Positions 37-13,428 of a stretch of DNA of 40,348 nucleotides are shown one piece after another. The notes under the pieces were generated by a model. The model had not been told where the DNA came from. It was given only the letters and a program-made list of their open reading frames with translations, and did no database searches. The DNA comes from a virus (lineage: Duplodnaviria; Caudoviricetes). Position 1 is the first letter of the stretch; every line of letters starts with the position of its first letter. The stretch is from IMG/VR virus record IMGVR_UViG_3300020044_004040, positions 1 through 40,348 of that record; one strand, written 5' to 3'. The translations under genes were made by a program, and so were the position numbers.

Positions 37-85
37 TGGCCTGTGGATAACCCCCTGTGGACAACTTTGCTGGCCTGTGGATAAC
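37..85 (-). promoter_or_regulatory. Cluster of three co-oriented DnaA boxes
   Basis: TGTGGATAA at 42-50 and 76-84 (= TTATCCACA) and TGTGGACAA at 56-64 (= TTGTCCACA, Streptomyces-type box); 15-bp direct repeat TGGCCTGTGGATAAC at 37-51 and 71-85. Confidence 0.7.
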
Positions 86-392: not shown

Positions 393-420
393 TTGATCGC
401 CTGTCGCTTTCGGGTATTCT
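393..420 (+). promoter_or_regulatory. Putative sigma-A-type early promoter
   Basis: TTGATC (393-398), 16-nt spacer, TATTCT (415-420), upstream of the first + strand gene. Confidence 0.45.
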
Positions 421-488
421 CCTCCTCATAAGCAGGACAGTCCGGCTTATACCCCCCGCCAGGCGGGGGCCGACAGGAAGGCGAAAAG

Positions 489-746
489 ATGAATATCAAC
501 CTCTCTTTCGAGGAGATCGAGATCGTGCGACAGGCTCTCGACTCAGCTCGAGCAAGCGCAAGAGTAAAGCGCGACGAGTTACTAGATGCCCCGGAGGTCC
601 GCCAGGGCGTCGAAAGCGACGAGCTGATATTGGCAGGGCAGAAATACCGCGCAATCGGCGCGACACTCGCCAAGGTCGAGGAGGAGGTAGGAAAGCACTA
701 CTCAACTGAAATGCTGATCCACTGGCGACGCGCCTGCATCGCGTAA
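489..746 (+). CDS. Hypothetical early protein
   Basis: 85 aa, ATG with GGAAGG RBS, helical composition, followed by hairpins. Confidence 0.75.
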   Translation: MNINLSFEEIEIVRQALDSARASARVKRDELLDAPEVRQGVESDELILAGQKYRAIGATLAKVEEEVGKHYSTEMLIHWRRACIA

Positions 747-753
747 CCGATCC

Positions 754-824
754 GCCTCGACCCTAGGAGGGCGCCCGGGATCACGACCCGGCGAGGCACA
801 AGGTAGGCCGTAGATCACGGCCAC
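754..824 (+). other. Intergenic RNA structure: tRNA-like minihelix plus hairpin
   Basis: GCCTCG 754-759 pairs with CGAGGC 792-797 followed by ACAA; CCGGG-7nt loop-CCCGG arm 775-791; CCCT/AGGG arm; second hairpin GGCCGT/ACGGCC within 802-824. Confidence 0.5.
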
Positions 825-843
825 CGATCAAGGGAGGCAAGAG

Positions 844-987
844 ATGTGCGGAATATGCGACAAGAGGGTGGCAAGGGCCACCGCGATCACCTATCGGGTG
901 AGAGTCAGCGGATCTAAGGGATATGCACACCCTGAGTGTTGGGAATCGATCTCAACCGATACAAGAGTGATCAGGGAGGGCGAATAA
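844..987 (+). CDS. Small CxxC...HxxC putative zinc-binding protein (47 aa)
   Basis: MCGICDKR...HPECWES; RBS GGGAGG; stop abuts next ATG; below ORF-track cutoff. Confidence 0.7.
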   Translation: MCGICDKRVARATAITYRVRVSGSKGYAHPECWESISTDTRVIREGE

Positions 988-1182
988 ATGGTGGTCGCTG
1001 AGATCAAGATCAAGAGTTGCGCCCCTTATGCTAAGGGCTGGCAGGTAAACGCCTTTATCGATGGCGTGGAAAGCGAGATGACCTTCTACGGATACACCCG
1101 AAAGGATGCTGAGATCGAGGCCCGTCGCCGGATCGCAAGAGATGGTCGCCTGCCTCACGATCCTTACAAGGGGGGCAATTAG
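988..1182 (+). CDS. Hypothetical protein (GYT-x-K-D/E-A family)
   Basis: 64 aa, RBS GGAGGG; shares motif with 2280..2414. Confidence 0.75.
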   Translation: MVVAEIKIKSCAPYAKGWQVNAFIDGVESEMTFYGYTRKDAEIEARRRIARDGRLPHDPYKGGN

Positions 1183-1302
1183 ATGCCAAAGTGTCCGAAA
1201 TGCGAGAGCGAGATGCACATAAATACCGTGATCGTACTAGGTGGCAAGAATAAGCACTATCAAGAGTGTGGATCGTGTAATTACAGATCGGAGGCAAAGT
1301 GA
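1183..1302 (+). CDS. Small zinc-ribbon protein (39 aa)
   Basis: MPKCPKCESEM...ECGSCNYR; coupled start and stop. Confidence 0.75.
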   Translation: MPKCPKCESEMHINTVIVLGGKNKHYQECGSCNYRSEAK

Positions 1303-1439
1303 TGGATCACTGTGGAGGCGTAATGACGCAAGAGAGAGCGACCCAATATCGGGAAACCCGCTATGAGTGCGGGTCGTGTCGGTACTTGATCGCGGTTGAT
1401 GATCACGGCAACATTGAGTTACTGAGAGAGGGCAGGTAG
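1302..1439 (+). CDS. Small zinc-ribbon-like protein (45 aa)
   Basis: MDHCGGVM...YECGSCRY; TGATG coupling, RBS GGAGG. Confidence 0.7.
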   Translation: MDHCGGVMTQERATQYRETRYECGSCRYLIAVDDHGNIELLREGR

Positions 1440-1541
1440 ATGCGAAAGCGAGAGTATTGGCAGATCGAGGCGATCCTTATCGGGATCGTACTGTTAGGCA
1501 TAGTCGGGCTATGGATCACAAGAGGCACACCGGACTATTAA
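1440..1541 (+). CDS. Small single-pass membrane peptide (33 aa)
   Basis: MRKREYWQIEAILIGIVLLGIVGLWITRGTPDY; RBS GAGGG. Confidence 0.65.
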   Translation: MRKREYWQIEAILIGIVLLGIVGLWITRGTPDY

Positions 1542-1549
1542 CAGGCGTG

Positions 1550-1626
1550 GAGATTCCCTATCGGTGAGCGTGAGCCGCATTAAGCGATTTACGCTCACTG
1601 GTAGAGGATAGCTAGGCGGTTATCCT
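1550..1626 (+). repeat. Conserved structured intergenic element, copy 1
   Basis: GAGATTCCCTATC - long hairpin - GGTAGAGGATAGCTA - GGTTATCCT; same flanks as 2419-2481. Confidence 0.8.
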
Positions 1627-1659
1627 TTCAATACCTAGGCAAGAGAAAGAGGGCAAGAG

Positions 1660-2280
1660 ATGCAACACAAGAGAACACAAGAGATCGCGGGCACCTATTT
1701 ACAGGGCTACACCGTACCGATCACCCGCCGACAGATCTCCGCCGTGTTCGGTGATCCAACCGAATACGAGGAAGGCGAGAAAGTATCTATTGAGTGGGGG
1801 ATCCTATTCGATGACGGCACCCTGGCAACTGTTTACGATTGGAAACGATACGAACTAGGCACGCCGGGGCTTGATGAGGAGATGATCTACAATATCGGAG
1901 GCCTCACCCCGGAGGCGGTGGCAAGGGTCGCGGATGCCTTGAAAGGGGCAGACAAGGCACCGATCACCCGCTCTTTATTTATTGAGGGGCGCGAGTGGTT
2001 CGACAAGGTAAACGGAAACTCTTATTTTAGCGCCCGAATATGGGTCGACGGTGGACAGGTGGCGATCCTACCTTTCCAATATGGTTACGGAGATCAATAT
2101 CTGTACGAGGCACAAAATAAGTTGATTGAGTTAGGCTACCTGCCACAAGAGAGCAAGAACCAAAGCCTGTATACAGTGGCGAGAGAAACCGGCATCGATC
2201 TTTATGCCGTCAAGAGCAACACAAAGAAGGCGGATATGTTTAAGATCTATGAGAGCTACAAAGAAAGGGCGGTGGCGTAA
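1660..2280 (+). CDS. Hypothetical protein, apparent two-domain fusion
   Basis: 206 aa, strong RBS; N-half LQGY..FGDP..EW..ATVYDWK, C-half EWFDKVNGNSYFS..FQYGYG. Confidence 0.85.
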   Translation: MQHKRTQEIAGTYLQGYTVPITRRQISAVFGDPTEYEEGEKVSIEWGILFDDGTLATVYDWKRYELGTPGLDEEMIYNIGGLTPEAVARVADALKGADKAPITRSLFIEGREWFDKVNGNSYFSARIWVDGGQVAILPFQYGYGDQYLYEAQNKLIELGYLPQESKNQSLYTVARETGIDLYAVKSNTKKADMFKIYESYKERAVA

Positions 2281-2414
2281 TGACGATCACAAGGCACCCC
2301 GCAGGGGTTGAGATCTCCGACATAATCGGGGGCTATCGAGTGAGTGAGCTATATATTGGATACACGATCAAAGAGGCGAGAGAGAGATTTCGGGATAAAT
2401 ACCTGATTAAATAG
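2280..2414 (+). CDS. Hypothetical protein (44 aa), paralog-like to 988..1182
   Basis: TAATG coupling; YIGYTIKEAR vs FYGYTRKDAE. Confidence 0.7.
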   Translation: MTITRHPAGVEISDIIGGYRVSELYIGYTIKEARERFRDKYLIK

Positions 2415-2418
2415 GCTA

Positions 2419-2481
2419 GAGATTCCCTATCTTGTAGGGTAGAGTACCCCTGCAAGGTAGAGGATAGCTAACCGGCTACCT
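2419..2481 (+). repeat. Conserved structured intergenic element, copy 2
   Basis: GAGATTCCCTATC - TTGTAGGG/CCCTGCAA hairpin - GGTAGAGGATAGCTA - GGCTACCT. Confidence 0.8.
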
Positions 2482-2511
2482 AATAGATGAATAAGAGAGA
2501 GAGGGCGAGTG

Positions 2512-2673
2512 ATGGATTTACGATTAAGTGAGAGGGAGCTATACGATCTCCTAGGTGCTGTCGAATTGGATTCGGTAGGTAAATGGGGCGATGATCGGAG
2601 CTTACGCCTTGATAAATTAGAGTCAAAGTTAAAGAGAGCAATATCAACCGCAAAGAGAGAGGGAAAGTTATGA
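2512..2673 (+). CDS. Hypothetical protein (53 aa)
   Basis: MDLRLSERELYDLL...; RBS GAGAGGG; ATGA coupling downstream. Confidence 0.7.
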   Translation: MDLRLSERELYDLLGAVELDSVGKWGDDRSLRLDKLESKLKRAISTAKREGKL

Positions 2674-2813
2674 GCTACACAATAGAGGCCACCGGCCTCG
2701 ATGGATGGATGGCCTACCGCTACCAATACAAGATCGGGGCGAGTGAGTGCTTTGGATATGCGGAGAGCGAGAGCGAGGCTCTGGCGATCATAGAGAAAGT
2801 GAGCAAGTTATGA
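2670..2813 (+). CDS. Hypothetical protein (47 aa)
   Basis: MSYTIEATGLDGW...; ATGA overlaps at both ends. Confidence 0.65.
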   Translation: MSYTIEATGLDGWMAYRYQYKIGASECFGYAESESEALAIIEKVSKL

Positions 2814-2947
2814 GCGTTAAGGTGGAGAAGGTAGAGTGTTCAAGGTGCGGGGCTAAGGTGAATCCCTTCACCCTAGTTACTGTCAGCTATCACGAAGATA
2901 TATGTAGAGGGTGCGCAAGCGATATAACAGGGAGGAAATGGAGATGA
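2810..2947 (+). CDS. Small zinc-finger protein (45 aa)
   Basis: CSRC...CRGC; start reassigned from 2747 to the coupled ATG at 2810. Confidence 0.7.
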   Translation: MSVKVEKVECSRCGAKVNPFTLVTVSYHEDICRGCASDITGRKWR

Positions 2948-3084
2948 GTGCAATCGTAAACCCGGTGATCGCGGGAGTCTGCAAGAATTGCGGGGAATCT
3001 ACTCGCGGTTACTATGTAGCGTTAAAAAATGGTAAGTACTCACATATATTTAATTGTAAGAAAGAGGGAGAGGGTGAGCGATGA
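2944..3084 (+). CDS. Small CxxC...H/C protein (46 aa)
   Basis: CKNC...HIFNC; RBS GGGAGG; ATGA coupling. Confidence 0.65.
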   Translation: MSAIVNPVIAGVCKNCGESTRGYYVALKNGKYSHIFNCKKEGEGER

Positions 3085-3137
3085 CTATATGCGGAGATCA
3101 CCTAGTACCGATCAGAGAGTGCGGGTGCAAGATATGA
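3081..3137 (+). CDS. 18-aa Cys/His micropeptide
   Basis: MTICGDHLVPIRECGCKI; strong RBS; ATGA overlap at both ends. Confidence 0.5.
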   Translation: MTICGDHLVPIRECGCKI

Positions 3138-3268
3138 ACGATTGCTTACAATTAGAAGAGGGAGTCATCCCTTGCCTACGTCATCACGGCGGAGCTTGGG
3201 CAGGGTGCAAACTGATTTATTGCCTAGATTGCGGTAAAGATATTAAGAGAGATTGTGAGGATAAGTAG
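3134..3268 (+). CDS. Small Cys-rich protein (44 aa)
   Basis: CLRH...CKLIYCLDC; start reassigned from 3029 to the coupled ATG at 3134. Confidence 0.6.
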   Translation: MNDCLQLEEGVIPCLRHHGGAWAGCKLIYCLDCGKDIKRDCEDK

Positions 3269-3445
3269 ATGAGTATGAGGGAAACTATGGATCAAGAGCT
3301 GGCGGAAGCGCTGGCTATGCTAGAGAAGGCGAACGGTGCGCTTGCGCGTATCTTTGGGATAGAGGAAGAGGGAGATGACGGATCAGGCGTGTGTGATATG
3401 TGCGCTGGTTGCCCTAATTGTGTGGAAGAGGGAGAGAGCGAGTGA
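3269..3445 (+). CDS. Small acidic protein with C-terminal CxxCxxCxxC (58 aa)
   Basis: ...VCDMCAGCPNCVEE; abuts both neighbours. Confidence 0.65.
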   Translation: MSMRETMDQELAEALAMLEKANGALARIFGIEEEGDDGSGVCDMCAGCPNCVEEGESE

Positions 3446-3558
3446 GCTATAACTGTGCTTGGTGCGGAGATTTAAGTGATGAAGTGTTGGAAATAATTAA
3501 CGGACAAAATACCTGCAAACTATGCAGGGAGTTAGCGATAGAAGGAGAGGGAGAGTAA
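3442..3558 (+). CDS. Small zinc-finger protein (38 aa)
   Basis: CAWC...CKLC; GTGA coupling. Confidence 0.65.
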   Translation: MSYNCAWCGDLSDEVLEIINGQNTCKLCRELAIEGEGE

Positions 3559-3692
3559 TGGAGTACGAATATGCAGGAGTGTATGACTGTGGCAAGTGCA
3601 AGGCGAAAGATGTGCAAGTGATCGAGTATTACGTGGGCGGGTTTGAGTGTTTCTCCTGCGCCGGTATTGGGCAAGAGGGAGAGAGTAAATGA
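3558..3692 (+). CDS. Small zinc-ribbon protein (44 aa)
   Basis: CGKC...CFSC; TAATG coupling, RBS GAGGGAG. Confidence 0.7.
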   Translation: MEYEYAGVYDCGKCKAKDVQVIEYYVGGFECFSCAGIGQEGESK

Positions 3693-3943
3693 GCTTTCAC
3701 CCTACACACGAAGCCCTCTTTATATTCTATGAAGTGATAGATAGCGATGGAGTGACCACCTTTGAGGGGGATAAGGCAGGTGAGGCGGTGCAGGCGTTCA
3801 AGGATGCGCCTGCTGGTGCTCGCTTGCTCGTATCTGGCTGGCAGACTGACGACACAGAGCTTACCATTGACGCTCAGATGATAGGGCAGCCGTTAGATGT
3901 AACCGCCCTAGTCGGTGCGGTGAGAGGGGGCTGGGTATGGTAA
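3689..3943 (+). CDS. Hypothetical protein
   Basis: 84 aa, RBS GAGGGAG, ATGA coupling. Confidence 0.75.
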   Translation: MSFHPTHEALFIFYEVIDSDGVTTFEGDKAGEAVQAFKDAPAGARLLVSGWQTDDTELTIDAQMIGQPLDVTALVGAVRGGWVW

Positions 3944-4083
3944 CAGAAGGCTACGCCTATCTGAACGGTACTGATCCTGAGTTCTGGATAGATGAAGATA
4001 TCATCGAGTGTAACGAGTGCGGGGTGGAGTTCGACTACCTGAAGTGGCGATCCTACACCTGCCCTGAATGTGAGTGGAAATAA
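3937..4083 (+). CDS. Small zinc-ribbon protein (48 aa)
   Basis: CNEC...CPEC; RBS GAGGGGG. Confidence 0.7.
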   Translation: MVTEGYAYLNGTDPEFWIDEDIIECNECGVEFDYLKWRSYTCPECEWK

Positions 4084-4151
4084 TGGAATGGTTATTCTTT
4101 ACACTTATTGCGGTATGCTTTGCCGTCTGGATGGAAAGGAATAAATGGTGA
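4083..4151 (+). CDS. 22-aa membrane micropeptide
   Basis: MEWLFFTLIAVCFAVWMERNKW; TAATG coupling. Confidence 0.5.
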   Translation: MEWLFFTLIAVCFAVWMERNKW

Positions 4152-4447
4152 GCGAAAGTAACGAGGCTGGACTTAGCCAAGCGATTCACTACCGTAACTA
4201 TAGAAGGGCCAGAGATAGGGCGAGGACTCGTATAGCTCAACAGTACCCTGAGCTTTACCTAGAATATCTACAAGAGGAGAGAGCAAACGATGAAACTACC
4301 GGTAAAACTTGGGTTGATATTGATCGTAACAGTGGTAGTGCTATCACTATTGAATCATACAAAGACGCTATCGAAGGTAGTACCTATACCGATCCCGATA
4401 ATGACGGAGCGGACGAAGGCAACAATGGAGGAGAAGAGAGAAAATGA
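4145..4447 (+). CDS. Hypothetical protein with Arg-rich helix
   Basis: YRNYRRARDRARTRIAQQYP; RBS GAAAGGA; 3' half overlaps the next gene. Confidence 0.6.
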   Translation: MVSESNEAGLSQAIHYRNYRRARDRARTRIAQQYPELYLEYLQEERANDETTGKTWVDIDRNSGSAITIESYKDAIEGSTYTDPDNDGADEGNNGGEERK

Positions 4448-4730
4448 GAGAATCGTTAGAGAATATAGTCGCGCTCTCGGATATTCGAGAAAGGAAGTTG
4501 CGTGCCTTGTCACCCTATGGACCCGTGAGAGCAGGCTTGACCACTTGGCCCGACCACGCGACTCCAAAGGACGACCCATTAGTTCAGCTTTTGGAATTGC
4601 TCAACTCCTTAGAGAGAGCAGTGGAGAACCTGAACTACAAGTCCTTCACGGCCTACGATACATTGGCCACCGCTACGGAGAATCTGCGTGCCGTGCTCTA
4701 CGACACAGTGATAGGAGAGGGTGGTACTAA
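4290..4730 (+). CDS. Secreted or membrane-anchored lytic transglycosylase-like (SLT/lysozyme-fold) protein
   Basis: N-terminal hydrophobic helix; CLxxLWxRES (catalytic Glu), SSAFGIAQ, GLRYIxxRYG, C-terminal GWY. Confidence 0.8.
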   Translation: MKLPVKLGLILIVTVVVLSLLNHTKTLSKVVPIPIPIMTERTKATMEEKRENERIVREYSRALGYSRKEVACLVTLWTRESRLDHLARPRDSKGRPISSAFGIAQLLRESSGEPELQVLHGLRYIGHRYGESACRALRHSDRRGWY

Positions 4731-5191
4731 TGACTGAGGGATTCTATAAGACAGATACTTTCAAGACATCTAATGATGACACTTGGACAACCCCGCTTGA
4801 CTTCTTTAAGAAGCTAGACAGGGAGTTTAACTTCACCCTGGATGCAGCTGCATTAGCAAGCTCAACCCTGGTGCCTGATAACTGGTTTGGTCCTGATCAC
4901 CCTGAAGAATCAAGGCGTGATGCACTGGTCAATAGGTGGACTACTGACGGCGCAGTCTGGCTCAACCCGCCTTATGGTAGAACCATTAAGGATTGGGTAG
5001 CTAAGGCCGACAGTGAGGCAAAGGCTGGAGCAACAGTGGTATGCCTAGTACCGTCACGCACAGATACAAACTGGTGGTGGGATAGTTGTATTCACCACGA
5101 GGTAAGGTTCATTAAAGGTAGGCTGAAGTTTGGTGATCAAAAGAACGCCGCACCATTTCCGTCAGCCGTTATAGTTATGAAGGGAAAGTAA
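4730..5191 (+). CDS. Phage DNA N6-adenine methyltransferase (Dam-phage family)
   Basis: W-x-TP, LDAAA, WLNPPY, PSRTDTxWW, GRLKF, APFPS motifs; TAATG-coupled start at 4730. Confidence 0.9.
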   Translation: MTEGFYKTDTFKTSNDDTWTTPLDFFKKLDREFNFTLDAAALASSTLVPDNWFGPDHPEESRRDALVNRWTTDGAVWLNPPYGRTIKDWVAKADSEAKAGATVVCLVPSRTDTNWWWDSCIHHEVRFIKGRLKFGDQKNAAPFPSAVIVMKGK

Positions 5192-5376
5192 TGCTTAGAA
5201 TATGGTTAAAGATAGGTATATTGGCAGGATGGGTGAGCGAGCCATACTGCGCTACACACGATGGTAATTACGATTATATGACTGAAGAAGAACAGGAAGA
5301 ATGGGATGATGGAAACGACCCCTGCCACGTGGCCGTGTCTATCTTGATTAAAAACCCATATCAAGGTATAGTTTGA
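5191..5376 (+). CDS. Hypothetical protein
   Basis: 61 aa, GWVSxPYCATHDG...DPC; coupled start. Confidence 0.7.
   Translation: MLRIWLKIGILAGWVSEPYCATHDGNYDYMTEEEQEEWDDGNDPCHVAVSILIKNPYQGIV
5344..5372 (+). promoter_or_regulatory. Sigma-A-type promoter with no downstream ORF
   Basis: TTGATT (5344-5349), 17-nt spacer, TATAGT (5367-5372). Confidence 0.55.
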
Positions 5377-5445
5377 CTTGCCCTCCTAAGTAGCAAAGCC
5401 CTCGCAGGCCTTTACCTCTTTCTCCTGCGGGGGCTATTACTTTTT
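5376..5445 (+). ncRNA. Candidate anti-Shine-Dalgarno small RNA
   Basis: Promoter upstream, terminator hairpin downstream; ACTTGCCCTCCT and loop CCTCTTTCTC are complementary to early-gene RBS motifs. Confidence 0.45.
5397..5445 (+). terminator. Intrinsic terminator between the convergent modules
   Basis: AGCCCTCGCAGG (5397-5408) pairs with CCTGCGGGGGCT (5424-5435), then ATTACTTTTT. Confidence 0.65.
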
Positions 5446-6012
5446 CTTAATCCAGACCTGAGTATTCTTAGCAAGTAATTCGTACTCTCCTTGATGGCGA
5501 TGGAGGAAGAGGTCAATACCTACCATCGGTGCAAGGCGTGGATCACCAGACTCGTGACCCCACGTGTAATCATCAAATGACATAATGCCACCAGACTTGA
5601 GCAGTGGCCAGCTTAGTTCACCATCAAGCAGCACACCAACAGTTGTGTGGTCTGCATCTACATATATGAAGTCAAAGATTGCATCTTTATTAGGGCGATT
5701 AAGAAAGTCCATAGTAGTTGAGGTGACACGCAATACTTGCGGGTAATGATCTGTCTTGTGTCGGTAAGTATCATAGACGCTAACAAAATCCATATCCTTA
5801 TGAGCTATCTCATCGCTACCTTGCCAGGTATCTACATCAGTAAGATAGCAATACTTACCAGTAAGAACGTTATCGCACATCCATACACTAGCGTCACCAG
5901 TAAATGCACCAAGCTGTAAGAAGCGAAGCTTATCTATACCAGCAAGTGGTGTAAGAAACTCTTCAAAGTTAAATTGAGCAGACTTAGCAAACCAGTTAGG
6001 ATAGTCGGTCAC
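5437..6012 (-). CDS. Class I SAM-dependent methyltransferase (Methyltransf_24-like)
   Basis: LQLGAFTGDAS, DVDTW, FDFIYVDADH, LKSGGIMSFDDY. Confidence 0.85.
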   Translation of the reverse strand: MTDYPNWFAKSAQFNFEEFLTPLAGIDKLRFLQLGAFTGDASVWMCDNVLTGKYCYLTDVDTWQGSDEIAHKDMDFVSVYDTYRHKTDHYPQVLRVTSTTMDFLNRPNKDAIFDFIYVDADHTTVGVLLDGELSWPLLKSGGIMSFDDYTWGHESGDPRLAPMVGIDLFLHRHQGEYELLAKNTQVWIKKK

Positions 6013-12546: not shown

Positions 12547-12888
12547 TTATTCCAACTCCTTTTTAGTATCATCTTCAGATTCTTTTGTACCGAAGAGCCA
12601 TTCTACCAACGCGGGATTATCCTTAAGAGTGTCCACGATGTGGTATCCCACCAAGTCGCACACCTCTTCTGCATCGAAGCGCTTGCGATTAGCAAGTAGC
12701 GATTCGTGGATAACAGCGTGCGTCACCTCGTGCATTAGCACGTGGATCATTTTATCTTCTGGCAAGTTATGCCTAAGAGATATGCGATTGTTACCCGATA
12801 TGGTCACACCGTAACTATCTTCGTCGTGGTGTTTGTAATCAATCTTATACTTCTGACCGAAGATTTTTACCGAATAGATTCTAGGCAT
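12547..12888 (-). CDS. HEXXH zinc metallopeptidase-like protein (ImmA/IrrE-like)
   Basis: VLMHEVTHA plus downstream EEVCD; likely leaderless start at 12888. Confidence 0.8.
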   Translation of the reverse strand: MPRIYSVKIFGQKYKIDYKHHDEDSYGVTISGNNRISLRHNLPEDKMIHVLMHEVTHAVIHESLLANRKRFDAEEVCDLVGYHIVDTLKDNPALVEWLFGTKESEDDTKKELE

Positions 12889-12893
12889 AGCTA

Positions 12894-12911
12894 AGGATAG
12901 CACGGCGTGTC
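12894..12911 (-). promoter_or_regulatory. Leaderless promoter of the replication operon with GACAC motif
   Basis: Minus strand GACAC-gccg-TGc-TATCCT-tagct-ATG. Confidence 0.55.
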
Positions 12912-13001
12912 TAAGTTCCTATACCAAGCTGAGTATGTCTATAATACGAGCCGTAGGCGAGTTACAGTATGGCCCTCACGGGCCGACAGAATGGAGGCCC
13001 A

Positions 13002-13259
13002 GTGAGCCGGTTCCGTCTACTCACCCTGCCAAGAATGCGGGGCAGACGTCGCCTCTATGATGTCCTTCCTGAGCCTTACGGGGCCGATCTGAGGGACTTT
13101 GGCCCCCTTCACGTATGTTCCTGTGGGTCACAGGTCTTTAACGTGTCAGCTTCCTTTGAAGATTACGAGCTGGTCTGGTATGCCCTCGATGCTACCTGCT
13201 TCAGCTGCGGTGCTCTGGTCATAGTTCCTTGCCCAGTTGACAACCCAGATAACATCTGA
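13002..13259 (+). CDS. Hypothetical zinc-binding protein
   Basis: DLRxxGPxHVCSCG...CFSCG...PCP; GGAGG RBS before GTG 13002; TATAAT at 12940-12945. Confidence 0.7.
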   Translation: MSRFRLLTLPRMRGRRRLYDVLPEPYGADLRDFGPLHVCSCGSQVFNVSASFEDYELVWYALDATCFSCGALVIVPCPVDNPDNI

Positions 13260-13391
13260 TTATCATTCAGGTACTAACAGTTAGTTGGACTGAGATTCAC
13301 TCGCTGTGAGTGCTGGACATACCCACCTTGACGGCTTTATCTGATTGGTTTCAGATGAAGAAGATAGAGTGGGTTTTGTTCTTTCAGGCAT

Positions 13392-13428
13392 AAAAAAAGA
13401 GGCCCCCCACCCCGAAGGGCGGAGGGCC
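13392..13428 (-). terminator. Intrinsic terminator of the late/lysis operon
   Basis: GGCCCTCCGCCC-TTCG-GGGTGGGGGGCC followed by TCTTTTTTT. Confidence 0.9.

What the first reader, a model, noticed from the sequence alone, without database searches (positions are those of the whole stretch)
5344..5445. Candidate phage sRNA with two anti-Shine-Dalgarno arms matching the early-gene RBS motif
Seen: a TTGATT-N17-TATAGT promoter fires into about 65 nt with no ORF, closed by a 12-bp terminator hairpin. The 5' arm ACUUGCCCUCCU (5376-5387) is complementary to GAGGGCAAG (1649-1657, 9 bp), GAGGGCGAGU (2501-2510), GAGGGCAGGU (1428-1437) and GGAGGGCGA (975-983), the last three with one G.U pair. The unusually large 15-nt terminator loop carries CCUCUUUCUC (5415-5424), complementary to GAGAAAGAGG (1643-1652), AGAAAGAGG (3059-3067) and GAGAGAGAGG (2495-2504). 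Early genes share this GAGAGGG(C/A)RAG motif, whereas many late genes use AAGGAG. Inference: one trans-acting RNA silences the whole early class (and possibly host mRNAs through CCUCCU), an RNA-based early-to-late switch; leaderless phage mRNAs would be immune. The exact start site could trim 2-4 nt from the 5' arm.
Basis: partly seen in the sequence, partly recalled or inferred. Interest (0 to 1): 0.85.

Follow-up and report, generated by a model that had tools for sequence, protein, structure and literature searches.

The report
Phage sRNA tracking early ribosome sites
A large family of freshwater phages keeps a promoter and a hairpin where its two gene blocks meet, which likely make a ~67-base RNA whose exposed bases match the ribosome-binding sites of the phage's putative early genes and change in step with them across relatives, so it likely switches those genes off by RNA-RNA pairing.

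Summary
In 92 distinct copies from related phages an extended -10 box (77 of 92; 3.8% of random windows) precedes a purine-CCCUCCU-type 5' end and a GC stem with compensatory changes, whose loop is C/U-rich (75 of 78 large loops). G.U pairs favour the + strand (199 vs 29). Corrections: the promoter lies inside a real 61-codon gene; the start is probably G5380, so ACUU is not transcribed; the -35 is not conserved. The RNA pairs early start sites better than leftward or candidate-host ones, even at similar SD strength. RNA and site co-vary, but mainly at sites behind structured leaders (p<1e-4, 42 phages) and, out of sample, behind hammerhead ribozymes (p=0.01, 16 phages); ordinary early sites show little. 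In the window the two leader-borne sites (1643, 2495) each pair 10 bp with the loop. No transcript, repression or timing is shown; 'early-to-late switch' competes with superinfection exclusion. No Rfam or literature match. It works like 6C/cuckoo sRNAs and would do T4 RegB's job with RNA. The scan noted similar circuits on other DNA (e1-10040672, e1-8689036).

The parts
5191..5376 (+). Conserved 61-aa gene, last of the rightward block; its final codons carry the sRNA promoter
   Evidence: 46 related loci; in relatives the end of the gene encodes the extended -10
5344..5372 (+). Promoter: -35-like TTGATT, 17 nt, -10 TATAGT; relatives conserve TGnTAnnnT, not the -35
   Evidence: 77 of 92
5380..5446 (+). 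Predicted sRNA, ~67 nt; start inferred from spacing
   Evidence: one significant CM hit in the window, at this place
5380..5387 (+). 5' seed GCCCUCCU, predicted single-stranded
5397..5435 (+). 12-bp GC stem, terminator-like; 5 of 12 pairs change on both sides in 17 sequences
5409..5423 (+). 15-nt C/U-rich loop, second seed
   Evidence: 75 of 78 loops of 8 nt or more carry the motif, 82% pyrimidine
5436..5446 (+). U-rich tail; overlaps the stop codon of the convergent leftward gene
5437..6012 (-). Convergent methyltransferase-like gene, end of the leftward block; read-through would be antisense to the sRNA
1552..1626 (+). Structured double-hairpin leader, copy 1, before gene 1660
1643..1657 (+). 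Predicted primary target: RBS of the 206-aa gene at 1660; 10 bp with the loop (-12 kcal/mol ungapped, -16 with an internal loop)
2421..2480 (+). Structured double-hairpin leader, copy 2, before gene 2512
2495..2510 (+). Predicted primary target: RBS of gene 2512; 10 bp with the loop, one G.U
974..981 (+). Predicted target of the 5' seed (8 bp), RBS of gene 988/991
1169..1176 (+). Predicted target of the 5' seed (8 bp with G.U), RBS of gene 1183
2654..2662 (+). Predicted target of the loop (9 bp), RBS of gene 2670
3059..3067 (+). Predicted target of the loop (9 bp), RBS of gene 3074

Best explanation
A conserved promoter and hairpin at the point where the phage's two gene blocks converge likely make a ~67-nt RNA whose 5' end and hairpin loop are predicted to pair with the ribosome-binding sites of the putative early genes, which would shut down their translation as the RNA accumulates. 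Shown from sequence: conserved -10, covarying stem, + strand polarity, C/U seeds, preferential and co-varying complementarity. Inferred: host RNA polymerase starts at G5380; the hairpin terminates and stabilises the RNA; pairing needs no chaperone, as for 6C. Early RBSs use one-base-off SD variants (AGAGGG in 32% of 573 early starts vs 4% of 75 purine-rich candidate-host starts; GAGGGC 16% vs 1%) that the sRNA reads better than the 16S tail does, while at host and leftward starts the 16S tail does as well or better. Primary targets are the RBSs directly behind structured leaders or hammerhead ribozymes, probably the 5' ends of processed, long-lived early mRNA pieces that need active silencing; other early RBSs are secondary targets through the shared motif. 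As the promoter looks host-type, the simplest timing is a delay by accumulation (a timer), not late induction.
For: Element at the convergence in 136 of 137 oriented loci, duplicates included; the miss (L274) is found by the CM. -10 box kept although the upstream gene differs. Stem: 94.5% of cells paired, 20 double changes vs 6.1 shuffled, slid controls at most 57%. Symmetric wobble count G.U 199 vs A.C 29; 81 elements favour +, none favours -. Window, start 5380: 14 of 19 early, 7 of 88 leftward, 27 of 331 candidate-host starts at -8 kcal/mol or better; strong-SD subsets 12 of 14, 6 of 13, 13 of 49. Across phages: early beats host strong-SD in 35 of 35 and own leftward strong-SD in 28 of 29; purine-matched 35 of 36; beats arm-shuffled RNA in 37 of 42. 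247 pairings centre at -14 to -7, 134 by the loop and 113 by the arm. Co-variation: beta-clamp-like gene family p=0.0004, the only one of 19 families under 0.05; leader RBSs p<1e-4 in 42, 27 and 18 phages, also without that family (87 starts, p=6e-4); hammerhead RBSs, out of sample, p=0.0095 (16 phages) and 0.006 (14). Single cases: 14-bp loop/RBS matches in L007, L008, L279; the GCCCUC seed has moved into the loop in L193/L296.
Against: No transcript, target or timing data. Early RBSs are strong SD sites anyway: the 16S tail also prefers them (p=4e-6; 32 of 36 purine-matched; the sRNA's advantage exceeds the 16S tail's in only 25 of 36). Whole-class co-variation is weak (p=0.006-0.03, 26 of 42; mean -0.08 once 3 outliers are dropped) and absent at 631 weak-leader starts (p=0.56). 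9 of 11 motif-by-motif tests were not significant in both sets, some with a wrongly trimmed 5' end. The leader subset was defined after seeing the family result; phages are related and permutations ignore the tree. Starts were called by a purine-richness heuristic (several leftward starts are wrong); the energy model is home-made and ignores target structure. In some phages own pairing is poor (L189, L196, L203). Syntenic cultivated relatives E7/F5 lack the element and still lyse their host. Host and the label 'early' are inferred.
Confidence: 0.62

Rival explanations
1. Same RNA and pairing, but its job is superinfection exclusion or holding a carrier/plasmid-like state: RNA from the resident genome silences the early genes of incoming kin, or its own, as c4 and CI immunity RNAs do (recalled).
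For: Host-type promoter, so expression needs no phage factor; the RBS motif is shared family-wide, so cross-pairing is broad (small cognate advantage overall); three DnaA-like boxes at 42-84 and at least two in 13 of 29 relatives.
Against: No integrase or repressor among the 24 + 26 window proteins scanned (not all ORFs); cultivated relatives lyse; co-variation is with own sites, which fits self-regulation.
Confidence: 0.15
2. A general anti-SD or 16S-tail mimic aimed at the host: it blocks host SD-led mRNAs or titrates a factor that binds the 16S 3' end.
For: The loop differs little from the 16S tail read from 7 genomes of the candidate host family; some 5' arms (L005-L008, L196) contain CCUCCUUUC exactly.
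Against: Candidate-host strong-SD starts pair 2.9 kcal/mol worse on average, in 35 of 35 phages; loops mostly lack the second CC and drift with phage RBSs; it would hit the phage's own early genes first.
Confidence: 0.1
3. Only a bidirectional terminator between convergent blocks; the C/U loop and arm are by-products, and complementarity follows from purine-rich RBSs.
For: Position at the convergence; the - strand also folds (-23.6 kcal/mol); it is one of three terminator-like hairpins in the genome.
Against: A terminator needs no promoter 6-60 nt upstream (77 of 92), no conserved 10-15-nt loop and no co-variation with RBSs; wobbles favour +.
Confidence: 0.08
4. A cis-antisense RNA or convergent promoter that trims or damps the 3' end of the leftward transcript.
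For: The tail overlaps the leftward stop codon here; a conserved promoter points into the leftward block.
Against: The downstream gene varies among relatives; the hairpin would stop the RNA within ~65 nt; does not explain seed conservation or co-variation.
Confidence: 0.05

Closest known systems
6C / B11 sRNA of Actinobacteria (PMC6486639, abstract and outline read; PMC10470900, passages read)
   Same: Single-stranded C-rich segments pair with RBSs of many mRNAs without Hfq/ProQ; two seeds, either can act; same phylum as the inferred host.
   Different: Host-encoded, two loops of C runs, host targets; here phage-encoded, one 5' tail plus one terminator loop with mixed C/U seeds that follow the phage's own RBSs. 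No Rfam match.
Cuckoo / alpha-r14 / RSs0680 sRNAs (PMC4615179, abstract and section 6 read)
   Same: Anti-SD-like CCUCCU displayed single-stranded.
   Different: 2-4 adjacent hairpins each with CCUCCUCCC, Alphaproteobacteria; here one hairpin and variable seeds.
T4 RegB endoribonuclease (PMC3014915, passages read)
   Same: Same proposed job: class-wide inactivation of early mRNAs through a motif in their SD region.
   Different: A protein nuclease cutting GGAG; here an RNA that would mask the site.
P1/P7 c4 and P4 CI RNAs; P22 sar (c4 and CI recalled, search listing only; sar from PMC12197685, parts 1-2 of 6 read)
   Same: Phage RNAs that silence phage genes by pairing; c4 uses two single-stranded segments (recalled).
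   Different: Temperate-phage immunity, one or two targets, c4/CI processed from a precursor; here own promoter and terminator and many RBS targets.
Start Associated Sequences of cluster K mycobacteriophages (PMC3203893, passages read)
   Same: Phage-specific extended RBS motif before non-structural genes, proposed there as a site for an unknown RNA or protein.
   Different: Different motif, no partner known; this family supplies a candidate RNA partner for an analogous motif.
Clustered hammerheads between phage genes (PMC3088659, passages read)
   Same: Type II hammerheads ahead of small genes in relatives (16 of 66).
   Different: No trans-acting partner in the passages read; none in this window, which has the double-hairpin leaders instead.

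Membership tests
Trans-acting base-pairing sRNA (class) | Own promoter and terminator, no ORF | tested here: met
   By conservation only; no + strand ORF of 25 aa or more within 5380-5446 (a 34-codon TTG ORF on the - strand overlaps)
Trans-acting base-pairing sRNA (class) | Accessible seeds complementary to targets elsewhere, co-varying with them | tested here: met
   weak for ordinary early RBSs
Trans-acting base-pairing sRNA (class) | Discrete transcript and seed-dependent regulation in vivo | not testable with these tools
   needs Northern/dRNA-seq and reporters
6C/B11 | Two hairpins with loops of C runs; Rfam model match | tested here: not met
   one hairpin, C/U loop; no Rfam hit at E<=1
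Cuckoo/alpha-r14 | 2-4 adjacent hairpins each with CCUCCUCCC in the loop | tested here: not met
c4 / CI immunity RNAs | Rfam model match; processed from the precursor of the operon it controls (recalled) | tested here: not met
   no Rfam hit; own promoter
c4 / CI immunity RNAs | Confers immunity in a lysogen | not testable with these tools
   no lysogen known; no integrase among proteins scanned
Intrinsic terminator | GC stem followed by U-rich tract | tested here: met
   the 15-nt loop is atypical and the stock scan (loop 3-8) missed it
CsrB/RsmZ-type GGA sponge on the - strand | Transcription and folding on the GGA-bearing strand | tested here: not met
   promoter 77 vs 6 of 92 and wobbles 199 vs 29 favour +

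The most novel reading that the evidence does not exclude
An all-RNA clock for a lytic phage: the early transcript is cut or capped into stable pieces by hammerheads and by an uncatalogued double-hairpin/pseudoknot leader (possibly itself self-cleaving or exonuclease-blocking), each piece starts with a private SD dialect, and one 67-nt RNA that co-evolves with that dialect switches the pieces off. It would replace RegB/RegA-type proteins across a family of about a thousand uncultured phage contigs, likely infecting the most abundant freshwater bacteria, and give Start-Associated-Sequence-type motifs an RNA reader.
Probability: 0.3. Interest if true: 0.87.

Novelty: new variant of a known kind. 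Interest (0 to 1): 0.72.

Why it matters
How lytic phages turn early genes off after host takeover is well explained in few systems, and there by proteins such as T4 RegB. Here a tiny RNA, with natural compensatory changes in dozens of genomes, appears to read a phage-private RBS dialect. That makes testable an open question left by the Start Associated Sequences of mycobacteriophages (is there an RNA reader?) and offers a reason why hammerheads and hairpins sit before early RBSs. The family is large (about 1000 stored stretches in the viral collection hold the anchor gene), and natural orthogonal sRNA/RBS pairs could serve as chaperone-free switches in Actinobacteria.

Tried and rejected
Rfam: nothing in the window at E<=1; in 4 + 7 related loci only hammerheads and a weak Thr-leader hit on a terminator. 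The two-arm pattern scan gave 96 stretches, mostly chance; the well-formed ones were all in this phage family. Larger phages that carry the 61-aa gene (16 printed of L014-L046) have no hairpin behind it. The CM found no match in E7, F5, Streptomyces phage Manuel or 400 kb of candidate-host DNA; type-B variants score weakly; the second L166 hit looks like an ordinary terminator. A - strand reading (RBS plus mini-ORF, or GGA sponge) was rejected: no conserved start codon, polarity on +. I first took window gene 1660 for a member of the co-varying beta-clamp-like family; it is not, and its model (pLDDT 83, pTM 0.54) has no credible fold match; 218 unnamed homologues. Motif-by-motif contingency tests: only TAACCCTT (p=0.002) and, in one set, TTATCCTC (p=0.04) of 11. 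Six of 42 phages were dropped for lack of a TG/TA-defined 5' end. Sequencing runs: no RNA holder listed; the single low-share run laid 7 short contigs, none on the element; no evidence either way. The careful tree did not finish; the quick tree was only inspected, no tree-aware test was run. Literature searches (listings and abstract starts) showed no description of this RNA; subscription papers and supplementary motif tables were not seen and could hold it.

Full report
Context. The window is a whole 40,348-base virus record. Small genes run rightward from 489 to 5376; sigma factor, primase, helicase, exonuclease, tail, capsid, portal and terminase run leftward. It is syntenic with Planktophila phages E7 and F5 (terminase and portal about 51% identity; record titles; PMC10202952, part 1 of 2 read), so a Nanopelagicales host is likely but inferred. 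'Early' for the rightward block is inferred from layout. The anchor sigma gene is in about 1000 stored viral stretches; I used the best 80 of that scan, 80 of the metagenome scan and loci.

Observation. All strings and coordinates are right and the hairpin is strong. The promoter alone is chance-level in this window. It lies in the last codons of a real 61-aa gene, and the tail overlaps the stop of the leftward gene 5437-6012.

Conservation. Of 197 loci with the sigma gene, 137 (duplicates included) also held the last conserved early gene; 136 have a GC stem between the two, giving 92 distinct elements. A stem search will find something in any such interval; what counts is the pattern. TGnTAnnnT precedes the stem in 77 of 92 (random windows 3.8%, mirror 6 of 92); 75 of 78 large loops are C/U-motif loops; the spacer from the -10 to the purine before CCCUCC is 6 nt in 34 of 60, with variable bases before it. 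The -10 stays when the upstream gene changes. In a 17-sequence alignment 94.5% of stem cells pair and 5 of 12 pairs change on both sides (related sequences inflate the shuffle control, but slid controls reach only 39-57%). A symmetric count gives 199 G.U vs 29 A.C. The CM finds one strong copy per genome and none in E7/F5, Manuel, larger phages or host DNA. Variants exist: a 5' hairpin showing AACCCUUUCC with a tetraloop terminator; loss of the arm with GCCCUC moved into the loop; a loop UUACUUGCCUUC. I conclude an RNA gene on +, probably starting at G5380.

Targets. With a home-made duplex-plus-opening-energy model, early starts pair far better than leftward ones (16 of 21 vs 8 of 63 at -8 kcal/mol or better with start 5380, p=3e-7), but a 16S tail does too (p=4e-6). 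With the tail read from fetched genomes and 331 candidate-host starts from 400 kb, strong-SD subsets give medians sRNA/16S of -9.5/-8.2 (early), -8.0/-8.6 (leftward), -6.2/-7.5 (host). Early beats host in 35 of 35 phages and own leftward strong-SD starts in 28 of 29, and in 35 of 36 after purine matching, where the 16S tail also does so in 32 of 36. Real arms beat shuffled arms in 37 of 42. 57 of 205 top-five locus-wide hits fall at early starts against about 2% by area, a figure that ignores purine bias. Pairings cover -14 to -7.

Co-variation. Over all early starts the cognate advantage is modest (p=0.006 and 0.03, 26 and 28 of 42; p=0.01 and 0.007 with corrected 5' ends, the mean-based signal mostly from three phages). 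By gene family, one of 19 stands out (p=0.0004, about 0.008 after Bonferroni; next p=0.06), holds with bulges allowed and with one phage per loop type (p=0.004, 9 of 13), and is a two-domain beta-clamp-like protein absent from the window. Most of these genes follow a strong hairpin leader. Starts behind strong leaders co-vary even outside that family (87 starts, p=6e-4) and 631 weak-leader starts do not (p=0.56). Per phage, leader RBSs give p<1e-4 for 42, 27 and 18 increasingly distinct phages, ordinary RBSs 0.17, 0.04, 0.045. This subset was chosen after the fact. A replicate came unplanned: Rfam flagged type II hammerheads; 16 of 66 phages have one before an early RBS, and these RBSs also match their own sRNA best (p=0.0095; 14 distinct, p=0.006). 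In the window the two leaders precede genes 1660 and 2512, whose RBSs each pair 10 bp with the loop. No test used the tree.

Mechanism. Shown: anatomy, polarity, complementarity, co-variation. Inferred: transcription, chaperone-free pairing as for 6C (PMC6486639, abstract; PMC10470900, passages), ribosome occlusion, processing at leaders, and timing by accumulation. The early promoter (393-421) and the leftward replication promoter (leaderless start near 12888) also look host-type, so the sequence gives no late trigger. Leftward read-through would be antisense and could limit the RNA. E7/F5 manage without this locus, so it is not universal; F5 has a different hairpin whose tip is complementary to its own GACAGGAG early RBS.

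Comparison and verdict. Not a member of 6C, cuckoo (PMC4615179) or c4/CI (recalled); it works like 6C and would do the job of T4 RegB (PMC3014915). The parts of the phage sRNA review that I read (PMC12197685, parts 1-2 of 6) list no class-wide anti-RBS RNA; SviR (abstract) is satellite-encoded; cluster A non-coding RNAs have no known role (PMC5712189, passages); SAS motifs await a reader (PMC3203893). Nine searches showed no report of it; supplements were not seen. Earlier AI notes of this scan describe similar circuits on other DNA and none on this sequence; they are leads, not support. New variant of a known kind, with unusually good comparative evidence and no experiment: interest 0.72.

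Noticed in passing
window 1552-1626 and 2421-2480 (+); 61 leaders in relatives: Repeated, uncatalogued double-hairpin leader before early RBSs: YTAYC, a long stem, GGYRG, then a small hairpin (63 of 103 strong leaders vs 9% background). A 5' strand pairs with the second hairpin's region better than in shuffled pairs (4.4 vs 3.8 bp, 0 of 300): possible pseudoknot. It occupies the same position as hammerheads, so it may be a processing site, ribozyme or exonuclease block.
   Followed up: partly
L005:966-1023; L173:15494-15553(-); 16 of 66 relatives: Type II hammerhead ribozymes directly before early RBSs (L173 passes Rfam's cut-off, L005 is below it); none in the window.
   Followed up: partly
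L311:32689-32727 (-), cultivated phage F5: Long hairpin with tip ACCCUCCUGUC, complementary to the GACAGGAG RBS repeated before F5's early genes and to the RBS just downstream; lies before the replication operon. A testable analogue in a cultivated phage.
   Followed up: partly
L007:3366-3965 and 19 relatives: Early gene for a two-domain beta-sliding-clamp-like protein (TM about 0.7 to DnaN); possible clamp mimic; absent from the window.
   Followed up: partly
window 42-84: Three DnaA-box-like 9-mers at the left end; at least two in 13 of 29 relatives; AT-rich and repeated GTAAGTTAC inverted motifs at 219-291.
   Followed up: no
window 393-430 (+): Early promoter-like TTGATC-N17-TATTCT followed directly by CCUCCUCAU, an anti-SD-like 5' end in the leader of the first gene (489).
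   Followed up: no
window 12888-13400 (-): About 500-nt structured non-coding stretch between the structural-operon terminator (13428) and a leaderless start behind an extended -10.
   Followed up: no
window 4290-4730 and 4444-4737 (+): Two long overlapping ORFs in different frames, both conserved in relatives (57 and 53 of 66).
   Followed up: no
L189: Relative that keeps the terminator but seems to have lost the seed arm; a natural control.
   Followed up: no
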